From IMG/VR virus record IMGVR_UViG_2693429668_000006: 64,000 bases of DNA, one strand, 5' to 3'. Of this stretch, positions 2,157 to 55,362 are shown in pieces. Source of the stretch: a virus. Its lineage: Duplodnaviria; Heunggongvirae; Uroviricota; Caudoviricetes. Every line of letters begins with the position of its first letter. Within the stretch, counting starts at the first letter, position 1. The notes beneath the pieces were generated by a model. It searched no databases. It saw only the letters and a program-made list of their open reading frames with translations, and was not told the DNA's origin. The position numbers and the translations under genes are program-made.

Positions 2157-2543
2157 ATGTCTGATAACAAGATTGAATTTATAGAAAGTCGCTACGCTGC
2201 TTTTATCGCAGGGTTGATTGAATCCTCACCTATGAGCCAGGCCCAGATAGCCAAAACAATTGGGTATAAAAACGCCAACAACCTTTCTTTAATTAAAAGC
2301 GGCAAAATTCCTTTGCCTATCGATAAGGTTCGTCCGCTGGCGCTGGCACTGGGCATTGAGCCAAGTCGTCTTATGATGATGGTGCTGGAAGAACGCCAAC
2401 CCGAACTCGCAGCATTTTTATACAAAGAAGGCACTGCTCCTCTTAACGAGGACGAAAAACAGGTTCTTGCTGCATATAACGAGCGATTCGGTAAAGAGAA
2501 AGGCGCATCACAAAAGGTTGTTGAGGCCATAAAGTCTCTATGA
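2157..2543 (+). CDS. HTH XRE-family transcriptional regulator
   Basis: Helix-turn-helix-like segment SQAQIAKTIGYKNANNLSLIKSG; divergent from integrase. Confidence 0.55.
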   Translation: MSDNKIEFIESRYAAFIAGLIESSPMSQAQIAKTIGYKNANNLSLIKSGKIPLPIDKVRPLALALGIEPSRLMMMVLEERQPELAAFLYKEGTAPLNEDEKQVLAAYNERFGKEKGASQKVVEAIKSL

Positions 2544-3641: not shown

Positions 3642-3851
3642 ATGACAATCACCGAGTTACGCCGATGCACTGTATAAGTAAACAGTATATTAGGCATAGA
3701 TTCTTATAGGATCAAGAGTAAAAGTAACTCATTTTCAGCAATGATTCCATACATAGTAGGTATGGAATCATTTAGCCGTTGTTTTTTGAATTTTAAGGGA
3801 ACCAAGCGTGAGTTTGGTGGGAACAAAAACGGCTCCTGTGAGCCGTTAAAA

Positions 3852-4097
3852 TTAGAGAGTGGTGACGTATGCAGCCAGTTCTGTGTATCCGCCAATCGGT
3901 TGGCCATCGATCAGTACCTGGGGGATAGTCTCTACCGGTTTGCCAACAATTTCGCTAAGTTTTTCCTTATCGATACCGGCAGTGGTGATGTCGATGTACT
4001 CATAATCACCATAGCCGTGTCCCTTTAGTTGTTTCGCCAGCTCGACCGCACGTTTGCAATATGAGCAGTTATCTCGTCCGTAGATAACGATAGTCAT
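3852..4097 (-). CDS. glutaredoxin
   Basis: 81 aa, CSYC active-site motif near N-terminus, overall similarity to Grx1-type sequence; SD GAGGT before ATG. Confidence 0.7.
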   Translation of the reverse strand: MTIVIYGRDNCSYCKRAVELAKQLKGHGYGDYEYIDITTAGIDKEKLSEIVGKPVETIPQVLIDGQPIGGYTELAAYVTTL

Positions 4098-4236
4098 GTT
4101 TACCTCATAATAATTATGTGTTACTTAACCAGAAAATAAATATTACTATAAAAGATAGGTAAGTAAAAACCTATTTAATGTCTGCAATACATCGTAAACT
4201 TGCCTGTTAATCACAACTTAATTTAGTTAATATTTA

Positions 4237-5565
4237 ATGCAACTAACAATGGTAAGTACGAGAGCATACATGCCTGTTTTTATTTCTGTTGCAATTCTAA
4301 TGTTTTCCATAATAATTTTGTTTTTAGGTTTACTACTTGAGCCATTTCAAGATTGGAAGGTTACAGACCAAATTGCTGTATTGAGTAGTTTTATAACGAC
4401 AGCGGCTTTTTGTGCAACAGCGTGGAACGCCTATGAAGCAAGAAAAAGTGCAAAGGCAGCACTGGAGGCCGTTAGGATAACTACCGATTCATTGATTGAG
4501 ATGAGAAAAAATTCTTTCAAAGAATGGTTTGACACTTTATTAAATCAGCATGATGAGTTGTACAATAATGTCATACCAATCATTGAACAGACAAAAAAAC
4601 AATTTAATAAAAATGAAATGCATTCGTTTTTTTATCCATTGGTAAGAAAGCATGAGGTTATTCAGTACATAAAACATATTACCAATATATTAGTCTATGT
4701 AGATAACCGATTTTACATAGATGGAAATTGTTTTGATGAAAAAATGGAATATATTATTCAATTGAGTGGAAAAATACCACCGCAAATGAAGTTGGTTATT
4801 GCAGTTTTTGGATTGGACATCGATTCTCGTGAACCGCTGGATTCAAAAAAACTGTATGCTTTATTAAATAAATATGATTTTTTCAAAGATGAAATATTCT
4901 TTGATGATGCTTATTCAAGCATGCCTGAAGTAGAGCTATTTATAAAGGATAGATTTGATAAAATATTTAAAACCAAGATGTTAAAATACTTTTGGAACGT
5001 GATTAAGGAATATTATTCTCAAGTTGAAGTCAAAGAAATCTGGGTGGTTCGTCGTCCGCAAGTTGCTTCATCGGTATTAATGAACTACCAAACACCATTA
5101 TCTGGTTTAATTGATGATTATTTTAAAAATTTGCCAAATGAGGTAAAGAGCATTTTTGATGAAGCACTAAAAAAAGCTAATGATAGTGTTACGTCTATTG
5201 ATGACTATATTCATCGTTTGATCGGTTGCAGAGTCGCGTCGATTTCAGAGCATGTCCATTTCGAAAGTGAAATACTGAGTAGTGAAAAGGATGTGAAGGA
5301 TATGATTAAAAATTACATAGAGCAAAGAAAAACTGGAAAAAATGCGGTAAATCTTGGGCAGTTATATTTCTCGAGTGAGTCAGATGTAATTACAGGTGAT
5401 CAGTTGAGTGATGCGATCGATGAATATGAGAAAAAGTTGGCACTTATGGCAATAAACGATAATGATGATAGTGATAACCTATTGTGCCATATCTATATTA
5501 AATCATGTGAGATAGTTGATGAATATAAGCGTGAAACATTAAAATTGGGCGAGTACGCACAATAG
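4237..5565 (+). CDS. hypothetical membrane protein (two N-terminal TM helices, about 380 aa cytoplasmic domain), AT-rich
   Basis: Long ORF in strongly AT-rich DNA; hydrophobic segments PVFISVAILMFSIIILFLGLLL and IAVLSSFITTAAFCATAW. Confidence 0.55.
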   Translation: MQLTMVSTRAYMPVFISVAILMFSIIILFLGLLLEPFQDWKVTDQIAVLSSFITTAAFCATAWNAYEARKSAKAALEAVRITTDSLIEMRKNSFKEWFDTLLNQHDELYNNVIPIIEQTKKQFNKNEMHSFFYPLVRKHEVIQYIKHITNILVYVDNRFYIDGNCFDEKMEYIIQLSGKIPPQMKLVIAVFGLDIDSREPLDSKKLYALLNKYDFFKDEIFFDDAYSSMPEVELFIKDRFDKIFKTKMLKYFWNVIKEYYSQVEVKEIWVVRRPQVASSVLMNYQTPLSGLIDDYFKNLPNEVKSIFDEALKKANDSVTSIDDYIHRLIGCRVASISEHVHFESEILSSEKDVKDMIKNYIEQRKTGKNAVNLGQLYFSSESDVITGDQLSDAIDEYEKKLALMAINDNDDSDNLLCHIYIKSCEIVDEYKRETLKLGEYAQ

Positions 5566-5816
5566 GTTGTGCAGATTCGAAGCCTCTTTAAATTTTGCGC
5601 TGAAAATTGTTATTTTACGGTAAGTAACGCTGTTTTCAGCGCATAAATGTCAGTGAATAATTTGATGCTTGCTGTAACGATGGTACGCTACGTAAAATCC
5701 GATATTTATGAGACTGATTGCAGGTAAGGACTTACATAGCGCACAAAAATTGCTGATACCAGATGCAATATATGTTTAATGTCAAATTTTAGATAGGGGC
5801 GTATACGCCCCTGTCA

Positions 5817-6371
5817 TTATTTTATTTTATCTTCTTCTAAACGAGAAAATTTAAATTGTTTATCGGTGATGGTGAGTAGTGTTACACCTTCCTTTTCGTG
5901 TAAAAGACCGGCACCGTTTGACACCATAATCAATCTATCCTTCCCTCGAAAGATTTCATAATATTTACCAGCTCCACAAGTTTTAGTTTCAATACAGTCC
6001 ATGCCAGATACTGCTTCTCTGTTAAAAACACGATCTTTTGTAGCAACGGGTTTTCCGTACTCCTTTGTCAGCATTTCACTTATCTGGATGAATGTATACT
6101 TACCAACATTACTGGTTAATGACATTTCGACTTTTCCGTCGATCAGGTTGCCATTCGTATGCGGTTCTTTTTCAGTCGGACTATTTTTATCTTGAAGAAT
6201 AAACACTTCAACATTTTGTGTTAGCTTCTTGAATTGGGCTTTATAATTTTGTTCAAGTTCACTTTTATCTTTGCCTATTAACGTTAATTCATCTATTTCA
6301 GATTCGTTACACCCTGTTAGTGTTAACGCAATTATTAGAGATGCGAAAATATTGAGATGGCACTTCTTCAT
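5817..6371 (-). CDS. lipoprotein (signal peptide with lipobox LTGC)
   Basis: N-terminus MKKCHLNIFASLIIALTLTGC; AT-rich; hairpin 5795..5812 just past stop. Confidence 0.55.
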   Translation of the reverse strand: MKKCHLNIFASLIIALTLTGCNESEIDELTLIGKDKSELEQNYKAQFKKLTQNVEVFILQDKNSPTEKEPHTNGNLIDGKVEMSLTSNVGKYTFIQISEMLTKEYGKPVATKDRVFNREAVSGMDCIETKTCGAGKYYEIFRGKDRLIMVSNGAGLLHEKEGVTLLTITDKQFKFSRLEEDKIK

Positions 6372-6490
6372 TAATTTGTCTCCATGTTTAACTGCTGCGA
6401 TCTAATCAGGAACATGAAGGCAGTCTAACGCTGCCTCGGATCAAAGCGATAAAACGATACGTGAATATAACTAAGTGTCAACAAATCAAA

Positions 6491-6664: not shown

Positions 6665-6751
6665 TGGCGGAGAGTAATGGAATCGAACCATCATCGTTTG
6701 CACAATGGGACGGTTTTCAAGACCGCTTGAGCACCATGCTCCCTACTCTCC
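6665..6751 (-). tRNA. tRNA-Ser-like (anticodon UGA), type II, 87 nt
   Basis: Acceptor GGAGAGT/ACTCTCC, anticodon loop CTTGAAA, T-loop TTCGATT, 3' GCCA; hand-folded, D-arm not fully resolved. Confidence 0.5.
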
Positions 6752-7045
6752 AATTGTGTTGTGTGCTCCGTTTCGTGGAGCTAACGGCGGGTGATCAGAC
6801 CGCACCAGGTTGGACGTATTTCAGCGTTATGCTGTTGCAAGAGAGCCAAATTGTGATGGCCGGTGCTGATCTCCGGCATTGCCTACGTTAGCGGCCTTCA
6901 GGCAGTTCATCCGCTTGCTTCTACGTCGCACATCAGCCTGTGCATTCACCACAATGTTGAGAACACTGGTTGTCACGCTGCAACGCAACATTATATTCAT
7001 AAATTGGGATATGAACCCGTTACGCCAATGTTCTCAATATTATGT

Positions 7046-7121
7046 TGGTGCCGGTTAACGGACTTGAACCGCTGGCCATTTGCTTACAAAGCGACTGCTC
7101 TACCAACTGAGCTAAACCGGC
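7046..7121 (-). tRNA. tRNA-like, possibly tRNA-Thr (UGU), with imperfect anticodon stem (possible pseudo-tRNA)
   Basis: Good acceptor (GCCGGTT/AACCGGC), D-arm and T-arm, 3' ACCA, but anticodon stem GTCGC/GCAAA pairs at only 3 of 5 positions. Confidence 0.4.
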
Positions 7122-7125
7122 AATT

Positions 7126-7212
7126 TGGTGGGGAGTGATGGAGTCGAACCACCCGAGTCGCAATGACAGTAGATTTACAGTCTACACCGCTACCTCTACG
7201 GACTAACTCCCC
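7126..7212 (-). tRNA. tRNA-Tyr (anticodon GUA), type II, 87 nt
   Basis: Acceptor GGGGAGT/ACTCCCC, anticodon stem-loop GTAGA-CTGTAAA-TCTAC, long variable arm, T-loop TTCGACT, 3' ACCA; differs from host tyrT. Confidence 0.6.
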
Positions 7213-7217
7213 TAAAT

Positions 7218-7292
7218 TGGCGATGGTGGGTGGATTCGAACCACCGATCAGTTGGTTAACAGCCAACTGCTCTACCGCTGAGCTACACCATC
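7218..7292 (-). tRNA. tRNA-Asn (anticodon GUU), 75 nt
   Basis: Canonical cloverleaf: acceptor GATGGTG/CACCATC, D-arm GCTC-AGCGGTA-GAGC, anticodon stem-loop GTTGG-CTGTTAA-CCAAC, T-arm GGTGG-TTCGAAT-CCACC, 3' GCCA; sequence differs from host tRNA-Asn. Confidence 0.75.
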
Positions 7293-8733: not shown

Positions 8734-8896
8734 CCTTAATCTCCTTCACTGTGTGGGTTATTTCTACAATGCGATAAATACGACCGCGTCGTTCTATAAC
8801 ACCGCTTTTAATGTAGTCATTGATGCAACTGGACATCACCACAATACCGATTAAAAAACCAACCGCTAAAAATGCAATCATCCAGCCGAGCATCAT
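8717..8896 (-). CDS. small membrane peptide (59 aa), translationally coupled to ligase gene
   Basis: Hand-translated MMLGWMIAFLAVGFLIGIVVMSSCINDY...; start overlaps ligase stop (ATGA); below ORF-track cutoff. Confidence 0.35.
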   Translation of the reverse strand: MMLGWMIAFLAVGFLIGIVVMSSCINDYIKSGVIERRGRIYRIVEITHTVKEIKDDRIK

Positions 8897-10215
8897 TCTT
8901 TATCTCCGATTCGATCTTCTGTATCGCGTAAGCAACGCGGCCATTTCAGTCGTGGGTGGCGTAAGCTGCCGTCCGGTGTTTTCTCGTGACAATGAACCTC
9001 AACAATACGACCACGGTACTTCTCTTTGTTGTTCCAGATCTCGTCCAGATATTTATGCTTAATGCCGCTCGCACGAACAATCACACCGTTTTCAAGGCGA
9101 ATAACAATTTTTCCAAGCGTGTTGGCAAAACCAGAGTCCGGGTCGCCCGACTCAAAGTCGATAATTTCACCATCTTCTGAATCTTCGTCTTTTAACTTCC
9201 ACCAGCTGCGGGTACGTTTAAACTCGTAAACAGAGTTCGGATCTTTGCCCATCTCCCCTTCTTCGTTATCGTCAAGGCGTTTCATGAAGCGTTCGATGAA
9301 GTCTTCGTGGCTATGGATGATATAGAACGGATGCAGGTGAATGTCTTGTGTGTAGCCTTCACTGCGATCGTTTTTGAACAACGCCACGAGAATAGCCAGG
9401 CGCTCTTTCAGCTTCATACCTGTCTTTGCATACTCTTTGGATTTAGCCTGTGCCCGCCATTCCGGTAGGAAGAAGTCGAAAACATGATAAATAGCGCCAA
9501 TTGCCTGCACGTTCTTTTTGCGCAATGCAGATACGGACTGGTTAAATGAACCGGCTGTTCCTTCACCATCGAAGAAGATGTGTTTGTGGCCTGAAAGTTT
9601 GCCTAATTCGAGCATTGCTGGCTTTAGGTGATCGAGAGACGTGATTGGATTACCAGTACGAGAAAGGAAGTTAACCTCTTCCTCGTCAACAATAACCTCG
9701 CAAATTACTCGCAAACCATCGAGCTTAAGACTGCCAATCATCGGCCATTTTGCTTTAGGGTTTGGCTTGAAGGGGTATTTGTCGCCTTTTTCTTTATACG
9801 GTGACGCCAGCTGCACCTCGAATTTCGGAATGGGATTTTCAAAAACCTTGTTGCATAGGCTAATCCCAACACCCGCTTTCGGGTCTTTTAAGAGGAAACG
9901 ACGGAACACGTCCTGCCCATCGGCGCACATTGACGCCACGATAGACTCAACAGCAGCTATTGCTGCGTTCCCCGTCAGCTCGCGAGAGGCCAGCTTATTC
10001 AGTACATCAATGGCTTTTTCGTCACTTGGGACGGACTCACTAAGCGGCTCTGCCACTTTGTATTTCTTTACCCCAAAACGGATGAAAGGGTTGAGCATCA
10101 ATGAAACCATGCTTTGTTCAAAGTCATCCATGTTGGCCAATGCCTCTTTTTTTGCATTGGTTCCCATAGCTTTCATTTCGTCCAGCTTATGCTTAAGTGC
10201 GATCAACTTTTTCAT
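8893..10215 (-). CDS. ATP-dependent DNA ligase
   Basis: Adenylation motif I KLDG in ...GSLKLDGLRVICE...; 440 aa. Confidence 0.75.
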   Translation of the reverse strand: MKKLIALKHKLDEMKAMGTNAKKEALANMDDFEQSMVSLMLNPFIRFGVKKYKVAEPLSESVPSDEKAIDVLNKLASRELTGNAAIAAVESIVASMCADGQDVFRRFLLKDPKAGVGISLCNKVFENPIPKFEVQLASPYKEKGDKYPFKPNPKAKWPMIGSLKLDGLRVICEVIVDEEEVNFLSRTGNPITSLDHLKPAMLELGKLSGHKHIFFDGEGTAGSFNQSVSALRKKNVQAIGAIYHVFDFFLPEWRAQAKSKEYAKTGMKLKERLAILVALFKNDRSEGYTQDIHLHPFYIIHSHEDFIERFMKRLDDNEEGEMGKDPNSVYEFKRTRSWWKLKDEDSEDGEIIDFESGDPDSGFANTLGKIVIRLENGVIVRASGIKHKYLDEIWNNKEKYRGRIVEVHCHEKTPDGSLRHPRLKWPRCLRDTEDRIGDKE

Positions 10216-10682
10216 TGTTGTTTTGCCTCCATATGTTGATCGATTTGCTCATGTGTTTCTTTTGTTGTTTCTTCAATCAACGCCGCATACACGTCAGTGA
10301 TCGCTGTTTGTGATGTGGCGCTCTTCTTAACCATGCTATTAATCATTACACTGTCACGTTTTCGTTTTATAGTTCTGGCTTGTTTATTCCGTTCTTCAAC
10401 CTCCTTAATGAGTGCGGTCATATCTTCGAAATACAGAGATTCTCCTTTACGAATCTCTTCAACCATCATTTTTAACGCCTTGCATTTGCCTGCTTTAATA
10501 GCGGTTGCGCACGACTGGAAAGACGTTCGAGGAAGACGGTTTTCTTTGAAGGCAAGAATGGTGTGCTGGCAAACGGAGTAGCTGCAATATGCCGACTCAC
10601 CGTTTATCTTTACTTCCTCACAACGAAGTGAATAACCGTTATTTCCTGAAATAGAAGGGACTTTTGACAAATCAGCTTTCAC
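10212..10682 (-). CDS. hypothetical protein, Cys-rich N-terminus
   Basis: ORF track; overlaps ligase start by 4 nt. Confidence 0.4.
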   Translation of the reverse strand: MKADLSKVPSISGNNGYSLRCEEVKINGESAYCSYSVCQHTILAFKENRLPRTSFQSCATAIKAGKCKALKMMVEEIRKGESLYFEDMTALIKEVEERNKQARTIKRKRDSVMINSMVKKSATSQTAITDVYAALIEETTKETHEQIDQHMEAKQQ

Positions 10683-10749: not shown

Positions 10750-11532
10750 TTACCAACTTCCCCAGCTAATCATCTTGCGCTGATCGCTTTCTAAGCGATA
10801 GGGGGCAAGAAGCTCTGTGACATGATTGGTGGCGTATGATTTGGCCTCTTGCTCTATCATCGGTAATTCGTTAGCAATCCTGACCATCTTCCCAGCAAAT
10901 TCCGCCATTACGCCATCACACGCCTTACCCGCATCAACAATGATATGCACAAGATCCAACTGGCTTTTGCACATGTCCCAAAGAGTCGAATATTCGCTCT
11001 CCCTGATTAGGTTTACAGCATCATTAGCCCCTTTATTAATCAAAACCTCCAACAGATTTGTCGGGGTGACGAAATCGGCTTTCAGAGACAATGTTGGTTC
11101 AGCTTTTACCGACAGCAAGTAATCTTCAAAGTTTTGCTTGTCTTCCAGCAAAGCTAAACTACGCATAGCTCGAATTGATTCTCGAATAACGGCTTCAATA
11201 TGTTCGTCACCTGGAGGACAGATAATGGTATCTGTATAGATGACTCTGCCATCAAACCACGCCCCAACCTGCACTTTTAGAGTTCGTAAGTTTTCTTTGC
11301 GTACAAAAACAACTAATGCAGAACGTCGTGCATGTGCAGGTTCGCCCCATACGCACAACTTAACCTTCAGATAAGGTAGCCCCGGTAGAGGGATCTCGAC
11401 CAAACGAGTGGCGATATGATCCATTGCCGTATTGACGGCTTTTTCAATGATGTCTAGCCGATTGCTCTCGCTGATTTCTAAACCAGTTTTATCAATGATG
11501 TTGCAGGCTAATCTCTTAATTTCTTCTTTCAT
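10750..11532 (-). CDS. hypothetical protein
   Basis: ORF track, 260 aa, no recognised motif. Confidence 0.45.
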   Translation of the reverse strand: MKEEIKRLACNIIDKTGLEISESNRLDIIEKAVNTAMDHIATRLVEIPLPGLPYLKVKLCVWGEPAHARRSALVVFVRKENLRTLKVQVGAWFDGRVIYTDTIICPPGDEHIEAVIRESIRAMRSLALLEDKQNFEDYLLSVKAEPTLSLKADFVTPTNLLEVLINKGANDAVNLIRESEYSTLWDMCKSQLDLVHIIVDAGKACDGVMAEFAGKMVRIANELPMIEQEAKSYATNHVTELLAPYRLESDQRKMISWGSW

Positions 11533-11657
11533 ACCAACTCCTAGCTAACGGATGAAAGTATTCTTACAAAAACTTAAGTATGTATCTACTTATCATTTTA
11601 GGTGCAATAGTTCTTTATACTAAGATGCCGGGCATATCCTCAGCCCAGCATTCACCT

Positions 11658-12071
11658 TTAATGAGCTACAGCCTCACTGTTGCACATCTTTCTGTAGACC
11701 TGCTTATAACGCTGTAAATCATGAGGATCATTAGGTGCCAACGACTTCGATAGGATTTTGTATACCACCCCTTTTGAAAACATGCCCTTTGGCTTCATTT
11801 CGAGTTCAACAACATATGAGTGATAGCCCACGTATGCACCAAAGCCATTTTTGGCGTTTAATTCACCACACACAAAGCCTGTCACACTCCCATCATCATG
11901 ATCAGTCCTGACAAACTTATCTTTCCTAAACATCACCGACGTGGGATCTTTCATATCATCCGCAATTGCCTGTTGGCCCAGAGTAATAGCCTTCTCGTCT
12001 GTAGGCTTACACCCAACTAATGCAAACAACGACAATAAAGCACCTGTTAAAATCAACTTCTTTTTGCGCAT
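11658..12071 (-). CDS. lipoprotein
   Basis: N-terminus MRKKKLILTGALLSLFALVGC (lipobox LVGC). Confidence 0.55.
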   Translation of the reverse strand: MRKKKLILTGALLSLFALVGCKPTDEKAITLGQQAIADDMKDPTSVMFRKDKFVRTDHDDGSVTGFVCGELNAKNGFGAYVGYHSYVVELEMKPKGMFSKGVVYKILSKSLAPNDPHDLQRYKQVYRKMCNSEAVAH

Positions 12072-12298
12072 TTTGACTTCCCTTTATTTATATTTATCGT
12101 AGGTATTAGTTAACCAAAACACGAGCCGTGTCACAATAATTCCATAGCTCATTATTTCCATCAGTGATTAATATCACATCAACTTTACAGTTCATAAATT
12201 ATCAAAGCTGACAGATTAACTAAATTTAAGTACCCTTTTCGCACACTTGACGCTTGCCGCGTCTAAACTGTTCATCCTATATCAACAGAACATAAAAT

Positions 12299-13552
12299 AT
12301 GAAACTCATAAAACCTTCATCGTTGCTGGCATTAGCTTTGCTTTTCGGCCCTGGATACGTTAACGCAGATAATAAACAAACGCTGATCGACGCCGCCACC
12401 GCAGGAGATACCACAGCACAAAGTGCGTTAGGGACAAATTATTTGGATGGGGCTAATGGCTTTGATGAGGATTTAGTAGAGGCCAAGAAGTGGATCGATC
12501 TCGCCGCAGAAAAGGGAGATAAAGTAGCATATTATGCGCTTGGGGTTATGTACACAATTGGGAAGGGAGTAGATAAAGATCTAAATAAGGCCGTTGAGTA
12601 CTACAAACTAGCAGGAAATGCTCGCAACGGCAGTGCTTACCATAATCTTGCCGTTATATACGAACGAGGTTGGACTGGAAAGGAGGACCCAGAAGCTGCT
12701 TTAAAATATCACAAACTAGCAGTAGAAGCTGGTGATATACCTTCGCTTGCCTATATGGGATATTTATATCAATACGGTAAGGGAGTTCCGAAAGATTACA
12801 AGAAAGCATTTAAATCTTATAAAAAGGCTGCGGATAGTGGAAATGCCGCAGGAATGTATGGGCTAGGCTCTATGTACGACGATGGTGTTGCTGTTAAGCG
12901 CAACAATAAAGAGGCAATTAAGTGGTACTTGAAAGCAGCTGAATTAGGAAATAATAACGCCATGAGCGCGCTTGGATACAAGTTGATGCATGGAGAAGGT
13001 ATAAAAAAAGACTATTCGAAGGCCAGAAGTCTTTTAGAACAAGCAATCAGCTTAGGAAATGATTATGCCATGAACCACCTTGGTTACATGTATCTTAAGG
13101 GATTGGGCGTCAAACAGGATTATCGGAAAGCATCAGAGCTTTACCAAGCTGCTTGCGATAAAGATGACGAAACGGGCTGCGAAAACGTTGCTGCAATGAA
13201 AGCAAAAGGTACGTTCCGTTCGCCTTCAAAACAGCAAAATGCCAAATCTGACACTCAGCGACTTATTGCTAAATCCATTGATAAAGGCGTTAACGCAACA
13301 TTTACCTGGCAGGGTGATGATGCCGTCTTCACCGCTAATGATGGCAAAGTTGACTGCACCTTCTTGAAGGATTTTTCAGAGAAAGGAGGCAATCTGGCTA
13401 CCTCGTTTGTTTGCACCGATAACGTTCAAATCATCCTGAAGCAATTCAGAGATACCAAGAATGCCTACCTCGCGGTAATGACTGACAACTTCAACACAGA
13501 AGTTAAATCATTTTCGGTCAATGTTTACGTGACTAATACTGGTTCAAACTAA
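12299..13552 (+). CDS. secreted Sel1-repeat (TPR-like) protein
   Basis: Signal peptide MKLIKPSSLLALALLFGPGYVNA; repeated A-x-Y-x-L-G-x-M-Y-x-x-G-x-G-V-x-x-D/K units typical of Sel1 repeats; plus-strand island among minus-strand genes. Confidence 0.6.
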   Translation: MKLIKPSSLLALALLFGPGYVNADNKQTLIDAATAGDTTAQSALGTNYLDGANGFDEDLVEAKKWIDLAAEKGDKVAYYALGVMYTIGKGVDKDLNKAVEYYKLAGNARNGSAYHNLAVIYERGWTGKEDPEAALKYHKLAVEAGDIPSLAYMGYLYQYGKGVPKDYKKAFKSYKKAADSGNAAGMYGLGSMYDDGVAVKRNNKEAIKWYLKAAELGNNNAMSALGYKLMHGEGIKKDYSKARSLLEQAISLGNDYAMNHLGYMYLKGLGVKQDYRKASELYQAACDKDDETGCENVAAMKAKGTFRSPSKQQNAKSDTQRLIAKSIDKGVNATFTWQGDDAVFTANDGKVDCTFLKDFSEKGGNLATSFVCTDNVQIILKQFRDTKNAYLAVMTDNFNTEVKSFSVNVYVTNTGSN

Positions 13553-14797
13553 TGCTGCTATACCTTTTACCTTGCTTAAAAGTTCAAGCTGTCGTGAGTA
13601 AGGTTTTGCGCAATAGTAGGCTTTGATAATCTGCCCCGGTGTCGCATCGCCGGGGTCGAGTCCTTCCTCGCCCAAACACGCAACTTTGACATTAAGACCA
13701 ATACTGGTCAGTCGCCTGGCTGCGGCCATCGTGTTTCGTATAGCTTGCTTTTCACTATCCCACATCATGATCACATTACGTAATCCACGCGCCTTGAGCG
13801 TCAGGAACGCGCCCAACTGATCTTCTGCATCCTGAGTGGTGTTGCCAGATAGATGCATCCCGAACGTTCCTATTGGCTCCACGTAATCACGTAATGTTTC
13901 TTCGTCGAAAATAGCTCGTTTGACCCCCATAACATCGAACGCACCCTCACAGACAACTACAGTCTGTTTGCCGACTGCATTATGGCCGTTGTAGAGAAAT
14001 TTACCTGAAGCTGGAAGCTGCATAGGAAAGAGGTAGCGGCGTTCTGCTGTACCGGTAATGTCTCGTCCCTGAAATGTCTTCATTACCCCATCCAGATCGT
14101 AAACCGGTATCAGTATTCGCATATCGAATATCTGCCCTTTTACCTGATCTGTATACGGATCTACATAAGCGTGCTTGCCTTCGACGCAGTATCGTAGGTC
14201 AAAATACTTTGCCATTTCAGGTGATATGTTTCGTTCAACCAGATAGTCTGGAAGACGGCCATCTATAGGAAGCTCGTAATGACGAGGGAGTGCAACTGGC
14301 CCCTCTAACTCGACTGTGCTTGCAAGCACTAGCTCTTCTTTCTTTGGTGTCCACCCCTGGGAAAGAAGAGCGTTCTGCACATATTCCTCGAACTGTCGTC
14401 GTGATTTACCGCTGTAGTGCTTGAGGAAGACCAGCTTATTGAACTGAATCTCTTCGGGATGATCACCAGCGAAGCATTTGCCGACGCCACTGGTCAGATT
14501 GAAATATACCTTCCAGTTGGAGCTGCCGCATACCGGACACTCTTTGATATTCACTTCACGACCGCGAGCACTCACGCCTCCACGTCGATAAACGATACCT
14601 TCAGTATCCAACCATTGTTCAAAATCTAATTCGGCAATTAGCTCTTTCAGCTCGCTCACGATAATTCCACTTTTAACAGGCAATATTGTGACCAACCTAA
14701 ATGTTGATATAACATAAAGGCTCATGTGTTTTTCTTTTGTGGTTTGGCAAAAGAAAAGTTGTTTCACCAATGAATCAAGCGTGGAGGTGTTCTCCAC
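13544..14797 (-). CDS. DnaG-like DNA primase (zinc ribbon + TOPRIM)
   Basis: CPVCGSS...GKCFAG zinc-binding motif and TOPRIM-like VVVCEGAFDVMG; start position uncertain. Confidence 0.6.
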   Translation of the reverse strand: MENTSTLDSLVKQLFFCQTTKEKHMSLYVISTFRLVTILPVKSGIIVSELKELIAELDFEQWLDTEGIVYRRGGVSARGREVNIKECPVCGSSNWKVYFNLTSGVGKCFAGDHPEEIQFNKLVFLKHYSGKSRRQFEEYVQNALLSQGWTPKKEELVLASTVELEGPVALPRHYELPIDGRLPDYLVERNISPEMAKYFDLRYCVEGKHAYVDPYTDQVKGQIFDMRILIPVYDLDGVMKTFQGRDITGTAERRYLFPMQLPASGKFLYNGHNAVGKQTVVVCEGAFDVMGVKRAIFDEETLRDYVEPIGTFGMHLSGNTTQDAEDQLGAFLTLKARGLRNVIMMWDSEKQAIRNTMAAARRLTSIGLNVKVACLGEEGLDPGDATPGQIIKAYYCAKPYSRQLELLSKVKGIAALV

Positions 14798-14806
14798 GCT
14801 TATTTT

Positions 14807-16147
14807 TTAGGTAACGTCTAAGATTCGCTCAATGAAGCGCATTTGTTCGAGGTTTTGTTTAACGCGAATGCTGATCCCTCCCTGCTGGTTACGTGAACCG
14901 GCAAAGTAGAGACGAGCCTCTCCTTTCGCTTCTTCTTCTTCGGTTTTGTTGATCGTTATTACCAGGTCAGCAATACGTACTTTTTCGATGTTGTCGGCAG
15001 CGTGCATCATTGTGGCAACTTCTGACGCGCCACCTTCACGGTTTGTCTGCGATGCCGTGATCCCAGCAACGTTATGCTTGTCATAAAGAGCACGTAAATC
15101 GGTGTAGATACTACGAATGTTGGCGCGATCATCACGAAGGTCATAACTGGCACGCATCAAATCTGCGTAGTCGACAACAACCATGTCAGGCACCATGCCG
15201 TTGGCTTTCATGCTGTTAAGCATACGGTCCAGATCTGCCGGTGACATACTTCCTGACGGACGCTCAACAACCCACAAACTACCAATCCCCTTAGAGGCTC
15301 CCAACTCTGCCAACTTACGATGAACTTCATCGCGCCGTTCCACCAACTTGGACATTTCCGTCTCCGACAATCTTGCATCAAAACGGTCGGACAAAATGTT
15401 GGTGTGAACCTCCAGCGAGAGATACAGAACATTGTAGCCAGCAAGCGTTGCGTTTATGGAAAACTCGCCCATTGCGGTCGATTTACCGGATTTAGCGAAC
15501 CCCATGAAGAGCACCATTTCGCGCTTTGCCCAGCCTTTTTGGTACAGCAACCTATCGAGAAGAGGGAGTCCAGTTGTAATACTGTTTGGTACATACTCCT
15601 CTGAAGCCTCATATTCACGCGCTTTCAATCGCTCACTTGCGGAGGTGTAGTAGTCATAGATTCCGGTCGCTTCGTTCGATCCAATCTGCTGAACCTTGGC
15701 CATGATTGCCATCGCCCCCTGAAAGTCGCCCTTCTCTTTCAGTTCAGCAGCCTTAATCAGAGCATCATCAAACGCTACGCTTTTTGCGAAGGTTGATACC
15801 TGGTCAACCATGTACGAGGTATCGGACAATTTTTCTGCAAGGATGCGCTTAAACGCAACAACAACATCGGCGAATAGTTCCTCACGGATAGTCTTATCGC
15901 GTTTCGCACGCTTAAGCATATCCAGAATTGCAGATGAAGAGGGCGCGCTCTTGTACATACGGTAATAGCCCGAAACCATATTAACCAATATGGCATTGGC
16001 CGCATTGGCAAATTGGCTAGGCACAACCAGATCTCCCGCACGAGTAAGAAACTCGTGATCACGACAAAAATATGCCGTCAGTCTGTTCTGGAAATCTTCA
16101 TCAAACTCTTCGGACAGCCCGCGTCCTGTATGGCAAAGTTCGGTCAT
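14807..16147 (-). CDS. DnaB-family replicative helicase
   Basis: Walker A GFAKSGKST, Walker B VVVDYADLM, RecA-like C-terminal domain. Confidence 0.7.
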   Translation of the reverse strand: MTELCHTGRGLSEEFDEDFQNRLTAYFCRDHEFLTRAGDLVVPSQFANAANAILVNMVSGYYRMYKSAPSSSAILDMLKRAKRDKTIREELFADVVVAFKRILAEKLSDTSYMVDQVSTFAKSVAFDDALIKAAELKEKGDFQGAMAIMAKVQQIGSNEATGIYDYYTSASERLKAREYEASEEYVPNSITTGLPLLDRLLYQKGWAKREMVLFMGFAKSGKSTAMGEFSINATLAGYNVLYLSLEVHTNILSDRFDARLSETEMSKLVERRDEVHRKLAELGASKGIGSLWVVERPSGSMSPADLDRMLNSMKANGMVPDMVVVDYADLMRASYDLRDDRANIRSIYTDLRALYDKHNVAGITASQTNREGGASEVATMMHAADNIEKVRIADLVITINKTEEEEAKGEARLYFAGSRNQQGGISIRVKQNLEQMRFIERILDVT

Positions 16148-17112: not shown

Positions 17113-18819
17113 TTAATGATTGAGTATTTTATTAACACGCAGCTTATTAAGTGTTGATTTTGAAGCAACTTCCTCCAAAGCTTCTATTGCTTTATCAGTG
17201 ATGCTCTTCTGTTCGTCTGTCGGGTGTTGCATACCCTTGAACTTGAGCATAGTCTCTTCTACTAAATTCAAAGCATCCTGATCACAGGATAATATCCAGT
17301 TTACGTAATCATCTTTAGAAAAACTGTTAAGAATATTCACATCACTATGGTTAAATCTTCCACCAGCTATTTTTTTTATAATTTTATCTAAGTTATAGTC
17401 ATCTGGATTTCTATCTTTCAATTTTTTTTCAATTCTGAAACCTAATTCTTCATTTCCGAAGATCTCTACTCGCAAAGAATTAAATGTAGCATACGCATTG
17501 TCTTTATTAACAAAAGCATCTGCATATGCCTCTATAATATTATTACAATCTCTATCCAATTTGATTAGGACATTTATTAAACCTACGAACTGTCCAATTG
17601 GTATACGCAACAGACTATCGTTAATTACGCGCTCAATTTGAAAAATAAACTCTGATTCATTATCTTTAAAAGAGTTTCTAAAAACATCCCAAATTTTATA
17701 AACCTCACATAAAACCCTATTATCTCTATATTGTTCATTTTTTTCTTTTATTATATTTAGAATATTGCTTTCAGAAGACACATAACCGTTCTTAAGGTAA
17801 AAATCTATATCATCATCGAAAGCACTTTCTGCTCGTTCATAAATAATATCAAGGCTATTAACAAATGAATATACAGAGTTAACTTCTTCCTTTTCATCTT
17901 TATCATCTAACATATAGTCGAATGCATGTATATTTTTGATTGACTCCTTAAATGAAGCATAATCAACGCTAGGAACACCAAAATAGTAAACCACTGAAAA
18001 TAAGACCAATCTATTAATAAAACTTTCTCTAACCTTATCCTCTGCTAACTTTAGCACATCTCTAAATATAACTAGAGATGATTTTATTTTATTTAATATT
18101 CTAATGTTTTTGATGTTTAAATCATTTGCTAGGTTTTTTAACAAAAGAAAATCAGGGTCAGTCTCATAAAAAACTTTTCTTAAGTTTTTCTCAGGCGTGG
18201 GATCGTATTTTATTTCCACATCAATTATTTTTTCTCTATACTCTAAAAACTGTTGTTGTGCAGTTTCTTCATGTAAGTTATCTTCATTTAATATTAGAAC
18301 AACCTTGCAATTTTTTCTTCTTGCCAACTCATCAATTACCCCCATAATCTCTTTAATTTCTAGCGCACTACCTTTTCGTTCAATATCATCAATGCAAACC
18401 AAATAATTATTAACAAATTTATACTCAAGAGATGACAGCAGATTATCAGTTTTGAACCCAAAAAAATCGTTCTTTCCAAAATGTATTAAAAATTTTGACA
18501 AGGAGTTGTATTTCAACCATCCCCAAAACCCATTTCTATAACGAATCATAGTTCGATCCGTTTCAGATAAAATCAGTTCTTTATATTTCTTTTCATTAAT
18601 TGGTGTGGCACAATGATAAAGAGCTTTTTTAATGTCTCCAATAGAATTTATTCCAAACAAAGAAACATATGAATATGCATTAAAATCTAATTTTTTAGAA
18701 TGTTTAGTATAAAAGCTATTCCAATAATGCGTTTTACCTACTCCCCAATTTCCTTTTATGACAGCAACCCGATGATCTGAGTCCAAAAAATTTTTTAAAA
18801 ATACTTCTATCGATTCCAT
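17113..18819 (-). CDS. KAP-family P-loop NTPase (candidate defence or abortive-infection protein)
   Basis: N-terminal Walker A KGNWGVGKTHYW matches KAP signature GxWGxGK[ST]; 568 aa; strongly AT-rich relative to neighbours. Confidence 0.55.
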   Translation of the reverse strand: MESIEVFLKNFLDSDHRVAVIKGNWGVGKTHYWNSFYTKHSKKLDFNAYSYVSLFGINSIGDIKKALYHCATPINEKKYKELILSETDRTMIRYRNGFWGWLKYNSLSKFLIHFGKNDFFGFKTDNLLSSLEYKFVNNYLVCIDDIERKGSALEIKEIMGVIDELARRKNCKVVLILNEDNLHEETAQQQFLEYREKIIDVEIKYDPTPEKNLRKVFYETDPDFLLLKNLANDLNIKNIRILNKIKSSLVIFRDVLKLAEDKVRESFINRLVLFSVVYYFGVPSVDYASFKESIKNIHAFDYMLDDKDEKEEVNSVYSFVNSLDIIYERAESAFDDDIDFYLKNGYVSSESNILNIIKEKNEQYRDNRVLCEVYKIWDVFRNSFKDNESEFIFQIERVINDSLLRIPIGQFVGLINVLIKLDRDCNNIIEAYADAFVNKDNAYATFNSLRVEIFGNEELGFRIEKKLKDRNPDDYNLDKIIKKIAGGRFNHSDVNILNSFSKDDYVNWILSCDQDALNLVEETMLKFKGMQHPTDEQKSITDKAIEALEEVASKSTLNKLRVNKILNH

Positions 18820-19950: not shown

Positions 19951-20216
19951 ATATGTGATATAGCCTAAATGCCTACGGCTACGGTGTAAAGGTTAAATGG
20001 TAGGTTGTGGTTAACAATTGGCAATCATAGCTTGTATTTGTCTGTTGAAAAAAGTAACAATGACCTCTATATTACAAGTACGGTGATATGCCGTACACAA
20101 TTTGATAATGCACACGTAATGGGCTATAGCCTTTTAAAGTAATTTTTGAGTCGAAAACTCAGTTTGAACAGAGGAGATTGATGGCCTTCCTACATCACGG
20201 CCATCAGGAGGAATAC

Positions 20217-20486
20217 ATGTCAGCACTAAAAAAGCAGCGCATCGATTTGAGATTAACCGATGACGATAAAAGCATCATCGAGGAAGCTGCCGCAATGTCT
20301 AACCAGAGCATTACTCAGTTTATGGTTAGCAGTGCATCTGAACGTGCCGTGAAAGTTATAGAGCAACACCGTAGACTAGTTCTGAATGAAGAATCCTGGA
20401 ATCTGGTTATGGACGCTATAAGCAATCCTCCGGCACCGAACGACAAGCTGAAACGAGCTGCTGATCGTCTGAAAAGCATGGAGTAG
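20217..20486 (+). CDS. DUF1778 / TacA-like antitoxin
   Basis: 89 aa, MSALKKQRIDLRLTDDDKSIIEEAAAM...NPPAPNDKL; SD AGGAGG before ATG at 20217; immediately upstream of GNAT gene. Confidence 0.65.
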   Translation: MSALKKQRIDLRLTDDDKSIIEEAAAMSNQSITQFMVSSASERAVKVIEQHRRLVLNEESWNLVMDAISNPPAPNDKLKRAADRLKSME

Positions 20487-20493
20487 TTTACTC

Positions 20494-21015
20494 GTGAGCA
20501 ATACAACGATAGAGATTTTCTCTGGAGAGAAAGATTATGATCTAAACGGTTTTGATTGCGGCGAAGAGTCACTAAACGCCTTTTTAGCCAACCACTTAAA
20601 AAGGCAGCATGAGGGAAAAATTCTTCGTGCTTATGTGCTTTGCACTCAAGAAGAAAGGCCAAAAGTGTTAGGATATTACACTTTGTCAGGTAGTTGTTTT
20701 GAAAAGGAGTCCTTACCTTCAAGAAGCAAACAAAAGAAGGTTCCTTATCGGAATGTTCCAAGTGTTACTTTGGGTAGGCTGGCTTTGGACAAGTCCCTTC
20801 AAGGTCAAGGATTTGGCTCAATGCTTGTAACACATGCAATGCGCGTTGTGTACAATGCATCTCTTGCTGTAGGCATTCATGGACTTTTCGTTGAGGCGTT
20901 AAATGACAAAGCCAAGGCGTTTTATAAAAGTTTAGGCTTTATCCAGCTGGTTGGTAACAACGAGCGTTCTTTGTTCTATCCTACAAAATCTATCGAAAAA
21001 TTGTTCGAAGAATAA
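20494..21015 (+). CDS. GNAT-family acetyltransferase toxin (TacT/AtaT-like)
   Basis: 173 aa GNAT fold with ...LQGQGFGSMLV... acetyl-CoA motif; paired with DUF1778 gene; GTG start. Confidence 0.65.
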   Translation: MSNTTIEIFSGEKDYDLNGFDCGEESLNAFLANHLKRQHEGKILRAYVLCTQEERPKVLGYYTLSGSCFEKESLPSRSKQKKVPYRNVPSVTLGRLALDKSLQGQGFGSMLVTHAMRVVYNASLAVGIHGLFVEALNDKAKAFYKSLGFIQLVGNNERSLFYPTKSIEKLFEE

Positions 21016-21047
21016 TGTGTTCCCCTCATTTGAGGGGAACTTCGACA

Positions 21048-21233
21048 TCACCAACCACAAACCCTCTCTCCCATCGTATTGTGAAAAAGGATTTGGCGTT
21101 CGGTTTCTTCAGTCATTACATCATTATTGCTGATATAGATAGGCTCAGCCCCATCGCAGAACAACACGCTGGCTGTTTGTGGTTTAATGACGCACCCACT
21201 TATCATACAACTCACGATGAACGGCAGAAGCAT
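21048..21233 (-). CDS. possible o-spanin (Rz1-like lipoprotein) overlapping 3' end of i-spanin-like gene
   Basis: Lipobox-like CMISGC; out-of-frame overlap with 21184..21435; weak, not proline-rich. Confidence 0.3.
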   Translation of the reverse strand: MLLPFIVSCMISGCVIKPQTASVLFCDGAEPIYISNNDVMTEETERQILFHNTMGERVCGW

Positions 21234-54339: not shown

Positions 54340-54365
54340 TCACGCTATCAATTAGGGAGACAAAG

Positions 54366-54830: not shown

Positions 54831-54834
54831 TGAC

Positions 54835-55359: not shown

Positions 55360-55362
55360 GTT

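What the first reader, a model, noticed from the sequence alone, without database searches (positions are those of the whole stretch)
12299..13552. Secreted Sel1-repeat protein encoded as a plus-strand island among minus-strand replication genes
Sel1/TPR-like repeat proteins with signal peptides are usually host-interaction factors rather than phage functions. The gene is on the opposite strand to its neighbours and its 3' end overlaps the primase gene end by 9 nt. This suggests lysogenic-conversion cargo.
Basis: partly seen in the sequence, partly recalled or inferred. Interest (0 to 1): 0.4.

Follow-up and report, generated by a model that had tools for sequence, protein, structure and literature searches.

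The report
Variable Sel1-repeat cargo gene, phage-plasmid
An SSU5-type phage-plasmid of E. coli carries, in a cargo hotspot right behind its primase gene, an optional gene for an exported Sel1-repeat protein that ends in a previously undescribed small beta-barrel; its function is untested, so it is an ordinary kind of phage cargo with a few unusual details.

Summary
ORF 12299-13552 (+, 417 aa) is a real gene under purifying selection. It has a Sec-type signal peptide, eight Sel1 helix pairs (Pfam E=5e-56) and a 9-nt convergent overlap with the primase stop.

The window is an SSU5-type phage-plasmid. The gap between the primase and the phrog_4248 gene is an accessory hotspot. In relatives it is empty, or holds a lipoprotein gene, this Sel1 gene, both, an unrelated ORF (SSU5, pHCM2), or fimbriae plus Phd/Doc. 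About a quarter of E. coli elements with this primase carry the Sel1 gene, always on plasmids.

- The last ~100 aa form a confident 8-stranded beta-barrel with no Pfam family and only 9 clusters among 1.84 billion representatives.
- The central repeats (residues 111-310) are about 50-65% identical, recombine, and vary in repeat number between plasmids whose flanking genes are 99-100% identical.
- A 46%-identical homologue sits in the moron position of a lambda-like prophage.

"Cargo" is supported. "Lysogenic conversion" and "host interaction" are untested. My best guess, at low confidence, is a periplasmic binder that neutralises incoming toxins or phage envelope-breaching proteins. Interest is modest.

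The parts
11594..13543 (.). Accessory cargo block in the hotspot between the phrog_4248 gene and the primase stop. It replaces about 39 nt of intergenic DNA in phage Cyrano.
   Evidence: blastn of the window against Cyrano, PhiR41_1 and SSU5: homology ends at 11593 and resumes at 13569/13599. The primase C-terminus is conserved at protein level.
11658..12071 (-). 137-aa predicted lipoprotein (MRKKKLILTGALLSLFALVG|C), phrog_2320, function unknown. It is a separable second cargo gene of the slot.
   Evidence: It is present without the Sel1 gene in Cronobacter pH322_1 and absent from Enterobacter pMS-37c, which has only the Sel1 gene. No Pfam, NCBIfam, PADLOC or PDB match.
12208..12236 (+). Promoter-like element CTGACA-17 nt-TACCCT upstream of the Sel1 gene (inferred, weak).
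   Evidence: The block is conserved between the E. coli and Enterobacter upstream regions (CTGACA-17-TAACCT in the latter) while the surrounding DNA diverges. The generic promoter scan did not report it.
12299..13552 (+). Sel1-repeat/beta-barrel protein gene, 417 aa plus stop.
12299..12367 (+). Signal peptide, residues 1-23, predicted cleavage VNA|DN.
   Evidence: Sequence features and conservation in homologues. AF2 pLDDT <50 for residues 1-22.
12368..13207 (+). Sel1-like repeat superhelix, residues 24-303, eight helix pairs. The last pair carries a C286-x7-C294 cysteine pair.
   Evidence: Pfam 7 repeats. AF2 helices H23-H303 at pLDDT >90. Foldseek top hits are LceB, EsiB/c5321, LpnE, Oxalobacter Sel1 proteins and HcpC.
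12629..13228 (+). Hypervariable, recombining central repeats (residues 111-310). This includes the 36-aa repeat at residues 233-268 (nt 12995-13102) that the common 381-aa allele lacks.
   Evidence: 47-65% aa identity with saturated or near-saturated dS against plasmids whose primase, helicase, phrog_4248 and lipoprotein proteins are 99-100% identical. P0002 is a mosaic allele. This is one of only two intragenic identity troughs below 70% in the 64-kb comparison.
13256..13540 (+). Conserved C-terminal 8-stranded beta-barrel domain, residues ~320-414, with conserved C353 and C372. It is an orphan domain family.
13544..13552 (.). 9-nt convergent overlap of the Sel1 and primase stop regions (TCAAACTAA).
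   Evidence: The same overlap is seen in L009, L011 and L010.
13544..14659 (-). DNA primase (371 aa as annotated in relatives; the mechanical ORF extends to a GTG at 14797). It is a backbone gene that bounds the slot.
   Evidence: phrog_47 E=1.4e-62, weak DNAG_N/Toprim_2 matches. 100% aa identity to the primase of NZ_CP062814.1.

Best explanation
SHOWN. The gene encodes a two-module protein with a Sec-type signal peptide: a superhelix of eight Sel1 repeats, then a short linker, then a compact 8-stranded beta-barrel that belongs to no described family. It is optional cargo in a fixed insertion hotspot immediately downstream of the primase stop of SSU5-type phage-plasmids. The barrel and the first two repeats are conserved. 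The central repeats exist as old, divergent alleles that recombine and gain or lose whole repeats, independently of the near-identical backbone.

INFERRED. The protein stays in the periplasm. The reasons are: Sec signal only; two conserved cysteine pairs that suggest disulfides; no lipobox; and a barrel too small, at ~95 aa, to span the outer membrane. It is transcribed from its own promoter against the direction of the replication operon, and so is probably made while the element sits as a plasmid.

MOST LIKELY MECHANISM (a guess, low confidence). It is a stoichiometric binder that captures and neutralises a foreign protein arriving in the periplasm. That target could be an interbacterial toxin (T6SS, CDI or colicin-type), or a peptidoglycan hydrolase or ejection protein of a superinfecting phage. 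On this reading it acts as an orphan immunity or exclusion factor that benefits the lysogen. The variable repeats would set target specificity, and the barrel would supply a constant inhibitory or docking function.

The confidence of 0.35 applies to this mechanism; the descriptive part marked SHOWN I hold at about 0.9.
For: Architecture and export.

Accessory status and hotspot:
- The slot is empty in Cyrano, PhiR41_1, NZ_CP113488, pFJMB80007_2 and pKO_JKo3_2.
- Other states are lipoprotein only (pH322_1), Sel1 only (pMS-37c), both (window, L009, L011), an unrelated ORF (SSU5_041, pHCM2), and fimbriae plus Phd/Doc (pEC21Z137).
- Prevalence is 62 of 252 E. coli genomes, all on plasmids.

Allelic pattern typical of specificity or arms-race loci:
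- Sel1 is 75% identical while the flanking genes are 99-100% identical.
- dS in the centre is saturated or near-saturated, against 0.09 in the barrel.
- A mosaic allele exists.
- The only comparable intragenic trough in 64 kb is in the tail-fibre gene.

Cargo in other mobile or antagonism contexts: the homologue P0010 lies after the tail fibres of a lambda-like prophage, and P0006 lies inside an orphan CdiA-CT/immunity island.

[quoted passage not shown] The PA5086-5088 immunity proteins appear among the Foldseek hits. Barrel neighbours include the T6SS immunity protein BtaiB, the lysozyme inhibitors PliC, MliC and PhiA, and a phage 'putative lysozyme inhibitor'.
Against: No experiment or expression data exist.
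- No cognate toxin gene lies next to the gene in the phage-plasmid.
- PADLOC finds nothing.
- The Sel1 fold matches virulence-associated proteins (LceB, EsiB, LpnE, HcpC; E~1e-17 to 1e-13) far better than T6SS immunity proteins (E~1e-5).
- No positive selection was detected (dN<dS).
- The Sel1 allele does not co-vary with the tail-fibre allele, which argues against exclusion tuned to the element's own tail type.
- The CDI-island context is one genome, and the gene is not placed directly after a CdiA-CT.
Confidence: 0.35

Rival explanations
1. Host-interaction (colonisation or virulence) factor. On this reading the protein is released or surface-exposed and binds an animal-host molecule, as EsiB binds secretory IgA. 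The repeat variation would then reflect antigenic or ligand diversification.
For: The closest solved structures are EsiB/c5321 of ExPEC (34% identity), the Legionella proteins LceB and LpnE, and Helicobacter HcpC. EsiB binds sIgA and impairs neutrophil activation (PMC3735183). The carrier plasmids come from gut, blood and urine isolates of humans and animals. The lambdoid-prophage moron position is one where virulence cargo is common.
Against: Only a Sec signal is present, with no T2SS, T5SS or lipoprotein anchor, so the default location is the periplasm. Carrier strains also come from soil, wastewater and food, and the homologues in Pantoea and Pseudenterobacter are not obviously host-linked. 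Sel1 fold similarity is generic across functions.
Confidence: 0.2
2. Modulator of the bacterium's own envelope. On this reading the protein binds a resident periplasmic enzyme or sensor, for example a lytic transglycosylase (as Legionella EnhC binds Slt, from my own knowledge) or a sensor kinase (as ExoR does). This would tune peptidoglycan turnover, envelope stress or permeability in favour of plasmid carriage.
For: Periplasmic Sel1 proteins with such roles exist. NCBIfam gives weak sub-threshold similarity to MerG, AlgK, MotX and ExoR. The barrel resembles inhibitors of peptidoglycan hydrolases. The neighbouring cargo gene encodes another envelope protein, a lipoprotein.
Against: A conserved host target would not explain deep allelic divergence and repeat-number change among plasmids of the same species. 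All NCBIfam hits are far below their cut-offs (50-60 bits against 330-700). The lipoprotein and Sel1 genes occur independently.
Confidence: 0.15
3. The gene matters mainly as a transcription unit. On this reading, convergent transcription across the primase 3' end silences or is silenced by the replication operon, and the protein product is secondary.
For: The 9-nt overlap leaves no room for a terminator and is conserved across genera. The unrelated cargo ORFs of SSU5 and pHCM2 also end within 1-2 nt of the primase stop.
Against: The protein sequence is under purifying selection, with a highly conserved folded C-domain. Homologues function outside this context, in a prophage and on chromosomes. 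Many relatives have an empty slot.
Confidence: 0.04
4. Required phage function, for example a chaperone or a virion or lysis component.
For: It belongs to a PHROG family and lies among replication genes.
Against: It is absent from SSU5, a plaque-forming phage, and from Cyrano and PhiR41_1. It is absent from about three quarters of E. coli elements with this primase.
Confidence: 0.02

Closest known systems
EsiB / c5321 (E. coli ExPEC Sel1-like repeat protein, PDB 4bwr)
   Same: E. coli Sel1-like repeat superhelix; 34% identity over 278 aligned columns, Foldseek E=4e-17. It is also an accessory, island-borne gene.
   Different: EsiB has no C-terminal beta-barrel and is chromosomal, on a pathogenicity island. 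It is reported to bind sIgA (PMC3735183). No such activity was tested here.
Sel1-type T6SS immunity proteins (K. pneumoniae Sel1E; P. aeruginosa PA5086-5088)
   Same: Sel1-repeat proteins that neutralise an incoming toxin by binding. They occur as divergent paralogues or alleles (PMC7108748).
   Different: Those genes sit next to their effector genes inside T6SS loci. Here no effector is nearby. Structural similarity is weaker (E~1e-5), and they lack the barrel.
Helicobacter cysteine-rich proteins (HcpA/B/C)
   Same: Secreted Sel1-repeat proteins with Cys-x7-Cys pairs. Acinetobacter phage homologues of the query are auto-annotated 'hcpC'.
   Different: Hcp proteins carry a Cys pair in every repeat. 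Here only the last repeat does (C286/C294). Hcp proteins have no barrel domain.
MliC/PliC/PhiA/ACP periplasmic lysozyme inhibitors and the BtaiB T6SS immunity barrel
   Different: There is no sequence relationship: no Pfam MliC hit at E<=1 and no PDB sequence hit at E<=10. Those proteins are stand-alone and not fused to Sel1 arrays.
Classical temperate-phage morons and periplasmic exclusion proteins (lambda bor/lom, phi80/N15 Cor, P1 Sim, T4 Sp) - from my own knowledge
   Same: Optional envelope-targeted genes with their own orientation or promoter, placed in otherwise conserved phage modules. They protect or alter the lysogen.
   Different: There is no sequence or fold relationship. This gene's function and expression are untested.

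Membership tests
Sel1-like repeat (SLR) proteins, Pfam PF08238 | Tandem ~36-aa helix-turn-helix repeats that match the Sel1 profile above the gathering score | tested here: met
   185.5 bits against a cut-off of 30.7, in 7 stretches. The AF2 model shows 8 helix pairs at pLDDT >90.
Sec-exported (periplasmic) protein | N-terminal signal peptide with n, h and c regions and an AxA-type cleavage site; no lipobox | tested here: met
   Manual feature check: K2/K5, h-region Kyte-Doolittle 2.78, VNA|D; homologues share the pattern. SignalP was not run and localisation was not tested experimentally.
Helicobacter Hcp family | A Cys-x7-Cys pair in each Sel1 repeat | tested here: not met
   The protein has only four Cys residues: C286/C294 in the last repeat, and C353/C372 in the barrel.
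T6SS Sel1-type immunity proteins (Tli5b/Sel1E type) | Encoded adjacent to the cognate effector gene | tested here: not met
   The neighbours are a lipoprotein gene, the phrog_4248 gene and the primase. It could be an orphan immunity gene at best.
T6SS Sel1-type immunity proteins (Tli5b/Sel1E type) | Neutralises a specific toxin by direct binding | not testable with these tools
   This needs co-expression, competition and binding assays.
MliC/PliC lysozyme inhibitors (Pfam PF09864) | Sequence match to the MliC profile | tested here: not met
Curated Sel1 equivalogs MerG, AlgK, MotX, ExoR (NCBIfam) | Score above the curated equivalog cut-off | tested here: not met
   35-60 bits against cut-offs of 330-700.
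Known anti-phage defence systems (PADLOC-DB 2.0) | Match to a defence-protein model | tested here: not met
   Only a spurious 18.7-bit PtuA hit with no accepted stretch.
Phage moron / lysogenic-conversion gene | Accessory: variably present among close relatives and dispensable for the phage cycle | tested here: met
   Absent from SSU5, Cyrano and PhiR41_1. Present in 62 of 252 E. coli carriers of this primase. The slot contents vary.
Phage moron / lysogenic-conversion gene | Autonomous transcription unit expressed from the resident prophage or plasmid | tested here: inconclusive
   Opposite orientation, a 227-nt upstream region and a weak conserved promoter-like element. There is no clear terminator and no expression data.
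Phage moron / lysogenic-conversion gene | Changes a host phenotype | not testable with these tools
   This needs isogenic lysogens.

The most novel reading that the evidence does not exclude
The Sel1 array plus orphan beta-barrel may define a new family of mobile periplasmic 'specificity-cassette' protectors carried by temperate phages (phage-plasmids and lambdoid prophages). In this reading, a constant barrel inhibits or docks onto a class of envelope-breaching enzymes. A recombining, repeat-number-variable Sel1 array retargets the protein to different incoming toxins or phage tail proteins. That would be a periplasmic defence or immunity layer absent from current defence catalogues.
Probability: 0.15. 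Interest if true: 0.6.

Novelty: new variant of a known kind. Interest (0 to 1): 0.35.

Why it matters
SSU5-type phage-plasmids are common in clinical and animal Enterobacteriaceae: 252 of 5426 complete E. coli genomes carry this primase. Their accessory genes are a likely source of traits they confer on hosts, yet most are unannotated.

This gene is one of the two most divergent intragenic segments (the other lies in the tail-fibre gene) in an otherwise 96%-identical backbone. That pattern usually marks a molecular arms race. Identifying the ligand would show whether these elements protect their hosts in the periplasm against competitors or phages, or instead alter interaction with the animal host. 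It would also assign a function to an orphan beta-barrel domain and to phrog_8741.

If the function proves to be a generic binder with no phenotype, this is simply one more phage moron.

Tried and rejected
1. att-like or direct repeats flanking the cargo block: only chance-level 12-nt matches.
2. Co-variation of the Sel1 allele with the other hypervariable segment, in the tail fibre at 25.5-26.1 kb: rejected. The window's tail allele (>=99.7%) occurs with 381-aa Sel1 alleles. The other five 417-type plasmids are not among the 60 best tail-segment matches, which reach down to 96.3%.
3. Positive selection in the variable repeats: not seen. dN<dS with dS saturated or near-saturated, so the pattern reads as old alleles plus recombination.
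4. Obligate pairing of the lipoprotein and Sel1 genes: rejected, since each occurs alone.
5. The cargo replacing the primase C-terminus: rejected. The C-terminus is conserved at protein level.
7. Widening the C-domain family: a profile search and the 1.84-billion-representative search found only 9 clusters, and the two weakest (Big_5/PKD proteins) match only a short motif.
8. PADLOC, NCBIfam, Rfam and PDB sequence searches gave nothing specific.
9. A second Sel1 gene next to the prophage homologue (L006:10047-10982) is an unrelated cytoplasmic, membrane-anchored type.
10. The afdb50 fold library was unavailable.
11. Literature: no paper in the library links Sel1 proteins with phage-plasmids.
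Full report
**1. What is at the coordinates**

The six-frame ORF list shows an ATG ORF at 12299..13552 on the + strand, 417 aa. Every other sizeable gene at 8.9-18.8 kb is on the minus strand. These are:
- ATP-dependent DNA ligase (8893-10215)
- phrog_5055 (10212-10682)
- phrog_4248 (10750-11532)
- a 137-aa lipoprotein-like ORF (11658-12071, phrog_2320)
- a DnaG/Toprim primase (13544-14659/14797, phrog_47)
- a DnaB-like helicase (14807-16147)
- phrog_2500
- a KAP-family NTPase

The + strand protein matches Pfam Sel1 (PF08238) at 185.5 bits, E=5.4e-56, in seven stretches. Its N-terminus MKLIKPSSLLALALLFGPGYVNA|DN has the three regions of a Sec/SPase-I signal peptide and no lipobox cysteine. All full-length homologues have an equivalent N-terminus.

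**2. What element this is**

The locus is 100% identical to plasmid pTIC (MF554642.1, 'uncultured bacterium'). It is 99.0-99.9% identical to ~110-kb non-mobilizable plasmids of E. coli and E. fergusonii. The primase and helicase are 96.5-97.5% identical at DNA level to the Escherichia phages Cyrano, CMS-2020a and PhiR41_1, and 80% identical to Salmonella phage SSU5.

The window also holds tail, capsid, portal and terminase genes that are syntenic with these elements. It is therefore an SSU5-type phage-plasmid, a group with a small persistent genome and a large shell and cloud genome (PMC7969092).

**3. The gene is cargo in a hotspot**

Against Cyrano, homology stops at window 11593 and resumes at 13569. 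About 39 nt in Cyrano correspond to ~1.95 kb here. The primase C-terminus is conserved at protein level (...LELLSKVKGIAALV* against ...LELQSKVLGIKALS*), so the block is inserted exactly after the primase stop.

Sampling relatives shows six states of the slot:

| Slot content | Elements |
|---|---|
| Empty | Cyrano, PhiR41_1, E. coli NZ_CP113488, Enterobacter pFJMB80007_2, K. oxytoca pKO_JKo3_2 |
| Lipoprotein only | Cronobacter pH322_1 |
| Sel1 gene only | Enterobacter pMS-37c |
| Both genes | the window and E. coli plasmids |
| An unrelated + strand ORF without a signal peptide | SSU5_041; a 350-aa ORF in S. Typhi pHCM2 |
| Fimbrial operon plus Phd/Doc | pEC21Z137-115K |

Among 5426 complete E. 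coli genomes, 252 carry this primase and 62 carry the Sel1 region. All 63 Sel1 places are on plasmids and none is chromosomal. In PLSDB, 400 plasmids match the primase, and 84 have a tblastn match covering at least 80% of the protein.

SSU5 is a plaque-forming phage (references listed in PMC7969092) and lacks the gene, so the gene is dispensable for the phage cycle. No flanking repeats explain the exchange. Exchange is probably by homologous recombination in the flanks.

**4. Anatomy of the protein**

AlphaFold2 on a 22-sequence alignment gives 16 helices (eight helix pairs) for residues 23-303 at pLDDT >90. Confidence was low for the last ~100 residues. Foldseek against the PDB returns only Sel1-like repeat proteins: LceB, EsiB/c5321 (34% identity), LpnE, Oxalobacter Sel1 proteins and HcpC. 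The T6SS immunity proteins PA5086-5088 appear much lower, at E~1e-5.

In the alignment of full-length homologues, the C-terminal ~100 residues are the most conserved part. Most invariant columns lie in residues 321-409.

Predicted alone, this segment folds confidently (pLDDT 89.9, pTM 0.80) into eight antiparallel strands. It has:
- no Pfam or NCBIfam family
- no PDB sequence relative even at E<=10
- only nine clusters at E<1e-3 among 1.84 billion representative proteins

Seven of those nine clusters are real. They are four Sel1 fusions (P0007, P0013, P0123, and P0126 at 36% identity), two short proteins that look like truncated calls (P0121, P0124), and the 91-aa stand-alone P0125. In PHROGs the domain occurs only in phrog_8741, which is this same family.

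- avidins
- membrane barrels such as NspA and OmpA

Among viral models, the best matches are a 106-aa protein of E. coli phage Mt1B1_P17 (TM 0.75) and a Serratia phage 'putative lysozyme inhibitor'. These are fold-level resemblances only.

At ~95 aa, with mostly 6-7-residue strands and a conserved C353/C372 pair on neighbouring strands, I read it as a soluble periplasmic barrel rather than a membrane anchor. This is an inference. The last Sel1 repeat carries a C286-x7-C294 pair of the Helicobacter Hcp type, which also fits an oxidising compartment.

**5. Evolutionary behaviour**

Compared with plasmid NZ_CP062814.1, aa identities are:

| Protein | aa identity to the window |
|---|---|
| Primase | 100% |
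| Helicase | 99.3% |
| phrog_4248 protein | 99.6% |
| Lipoprotein | 99.3% |
| Sel1 protein | 74.8%, and one 36-aa repeat shorter (381 aa) |

By segment:
- Residues 26-105 are 90% identical.
- Residues 311-417 are 94% identical, with dS 0.09.
- Residues 106-310 are 49-65% identical, with pS 0.67-0.90 (saturated or nearly so) and dN 0.26-0.43.

These are therefore old alleles exchanged by recombination, not recent positive selection. P0002 is a clean mosaic: residues 1-110 are the window type (108/110 identical) and residues 111-310 are the 381-aa type.

Over the whole 64-kb window the two plasmids are 89% alignable at 96.4% identity. Only two intragenic troughs fall below 70%: the Sel1 centre (12.6-13.05 kb) and a segment of the tail-fibre gene (25.5-26.1 kb).

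The two variable loci are not linked. The window's tail segment recurs at >=99.7% identity with 381-type Sel1 alleles. The 417-type centre occurs in only six PLSDB plasmids, five of which are not among the 60 best tail-segment matches.

Between genera (E. coli against Enterobacter, 56% identity), pN is well below pS everywhere (0.17-0.35 against 0.74-0.84). The 9-nt overlap is retained. The gene is thus an old, selected resident of this slot in part of the lineage.

**6. Homologues elsewhere**

P0010 (46% identity, same architecture) lies directly after the tail-tip and tail-fibre genes at the end of a lambda-like prophage, next to host metabolic genes. This is the classical moron position. 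P0006 (58% identity, Pseudenterobacter) lies within an array of CdiA fragments (Fil_haemagg_2, PT-VENN), small ORFs and an IS element. P0009 (Pantoea) has an uninformative context.

**7. Expression**

A 227-nt A+T-rich region separates the Sel1 gene from the divergent lipoprotein gene. The block CTGACA-17-TACCCT (12208-12236) is conserved in the otherwise divergent Enterobacter upstream region, as CTGACA-17-TAACCT. It is a weak sigma-70-like candidate that the generic scan did not list.

The two genes overlap tail to tail, so there is no room for a terminator between them, and the transcripts must overlap. The unrelated cargo ORFs of SSU5 and pHCM2 also end within 1-2 nt of the primase stop. 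This suggests mutual interference between cargo transcription and transcription of the replication operon. That is an inference, and no expression data were available.

**8. Interpretation**

'Lysogenic conversion' remains an untested label, and 'host interaction' is only one option.

I favour a periplasmic binder that neutralises an incoming protein (confidence about 0.35). Five observations point that way:
- The protein is periplasmic by default.
- The allelic pattern resembles specificity loci such as the tail fibre.
- The family travels as temperate-phage cargo, and once sits in a toxin/immunity island.
- Sel1 proteins are proven T6SS immunity proteins (PMC7108748).
- Small periplasmic barrels of this fold are often enzyme inhibitors or immunity proteins.

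Four observations count against it:
- No cognate toxin is nearby.
- There is no PADLOC match.
- The Sel1 moiety resembles virulence-associated proteins more closely (EsiB, PMC3735183).
- The fold evidence is generic.

The rivals are a host-interaction factor (0.2), a modulator of the cell's own envelope enzymes (0.15), a mainly transcriptional role (0.04) and an essential phage function (0.02).

**9. Novelty and score**

The gene is already annotated in RefSeq as 'tetratricopeptide repeat protein' and is in PHROGs with unknown function. I found no paper in the searched library that links Sel1 proteins to phage-plasmids.

It is a Sel1-repeat phage moron, which is a known kind. It has an undescribed C-terminal barrel and a notable hypervariable-cassette behaviour, so I rate it a new variant of a known kind. 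Interest is 0.35.

Noticed in passing
window 11575-11592: The inverted repeat TAAGTA-N6-TACTTA lies just upstream of the phrog_4248 gene and exactly at the left edge of the cargo slot. It is conserved in SSU5, Cyrano, PhiR41_1 and the Enterobacter plasmid, with ATAAGTA/TACTTAT arms in SSU5. It could be an operator or a terminator.
   Followed up: partly
window 17113-18819 (-): A 568-aa KAP-family P-loop NTPase sits in a GC 0.31 stretch and matches the PADLOC candidate defence family PDC-S49 (E=2e-21). The segment 17109-18874 is replaced by different DNA in NZ_CP062814.1, so this is a second cargo hotspot.
   Followed up: partly
window 3773-6489: A low-GC (0.32-0.35) island holds a 442-aa ORF (4237-5565, +) and a 184-aa ORF (5817-6371, -), neither with a Pfam match. 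NZ_CP062814.1 has other genes in the corresponding region, including one annotated as an AbiGi-family antitoxin. This may be a defence island.
   Followed up: partly
window 25500-26100: A tail-fibre/host-specificity gene segment is only ~68% identical to NZ_CP062814.1 inside a 96% backbone. It is the only other intragenic trough as deep as the Sel1 centre. It reassorts independently of the Sel1 allele.
   Followed up: yes
window 20006-21050 and 54315-55668: Two further segments are not alignable, or only ~77% identical, to NZ_CP062814.1. They are additional variable regions of the phage-plasmid.
   Followed up: no
window 6665-7292 (-): A cluster of four tRNA genes (Ser-TGA, Thr-TGT, Tyr-GTA, Asn-GTT). 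Cyrano has a similar cluster in the same region, annotated as Ser, Thr and Asn.
   Followed up: no
window 2157-3641: A tyrosine integrase/recombinase gene (2538-3641, -) overlaps the end of an HTH regulator gene (2157-2543, +). On a plasmid prophage it may act as a dimer-resolution or inversion recombinase.
   Followed up: no
window 13544-14797 (-): The mechanical primase ORF starts at a GTG at 14797 and, by coincidence, is also 417 aa. Relatives annotate a 371-aa protein, which corresponds to a start at 14659 in the window (some records give 1185 nt). The true start is unresolved.
   Followed up: partly
L001:3994-4959 (SSU5_041) and L013:2391-3443 (pHCM2): Unrelated + strand cargo ORFs occupy the same slot and also end within 1-2 nt of the primase stop. 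SSU5_041 has no signal peptide; the pHCM2 ORF has no significant Pfam match. The insertion point is fixed at the primase 3' end whatever the cargo.
   Followed up: partly
L006:10047-10982: In the lambda-like prophage, the Sel1-barrel homologue is followed by a second, different Sel1 protein: 311 aa, no signal peptide, a Cys-rich zinc-ribbon-like motif and a C-terminal hydrophobic segment.
   Followed up: partly
window 11658-12071 (-): The neighbouring 137-aa lipoprotein (phrog_2320) is itself mobile cargo. It is found at 93-100% identity in E. coli phage-plasmids and at ~59-62% identity in Cronobacter and Enterobacter ones. It has no family or structure match. It is a candidate surface or exclusion lipoprotein.
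   Followed up: partly
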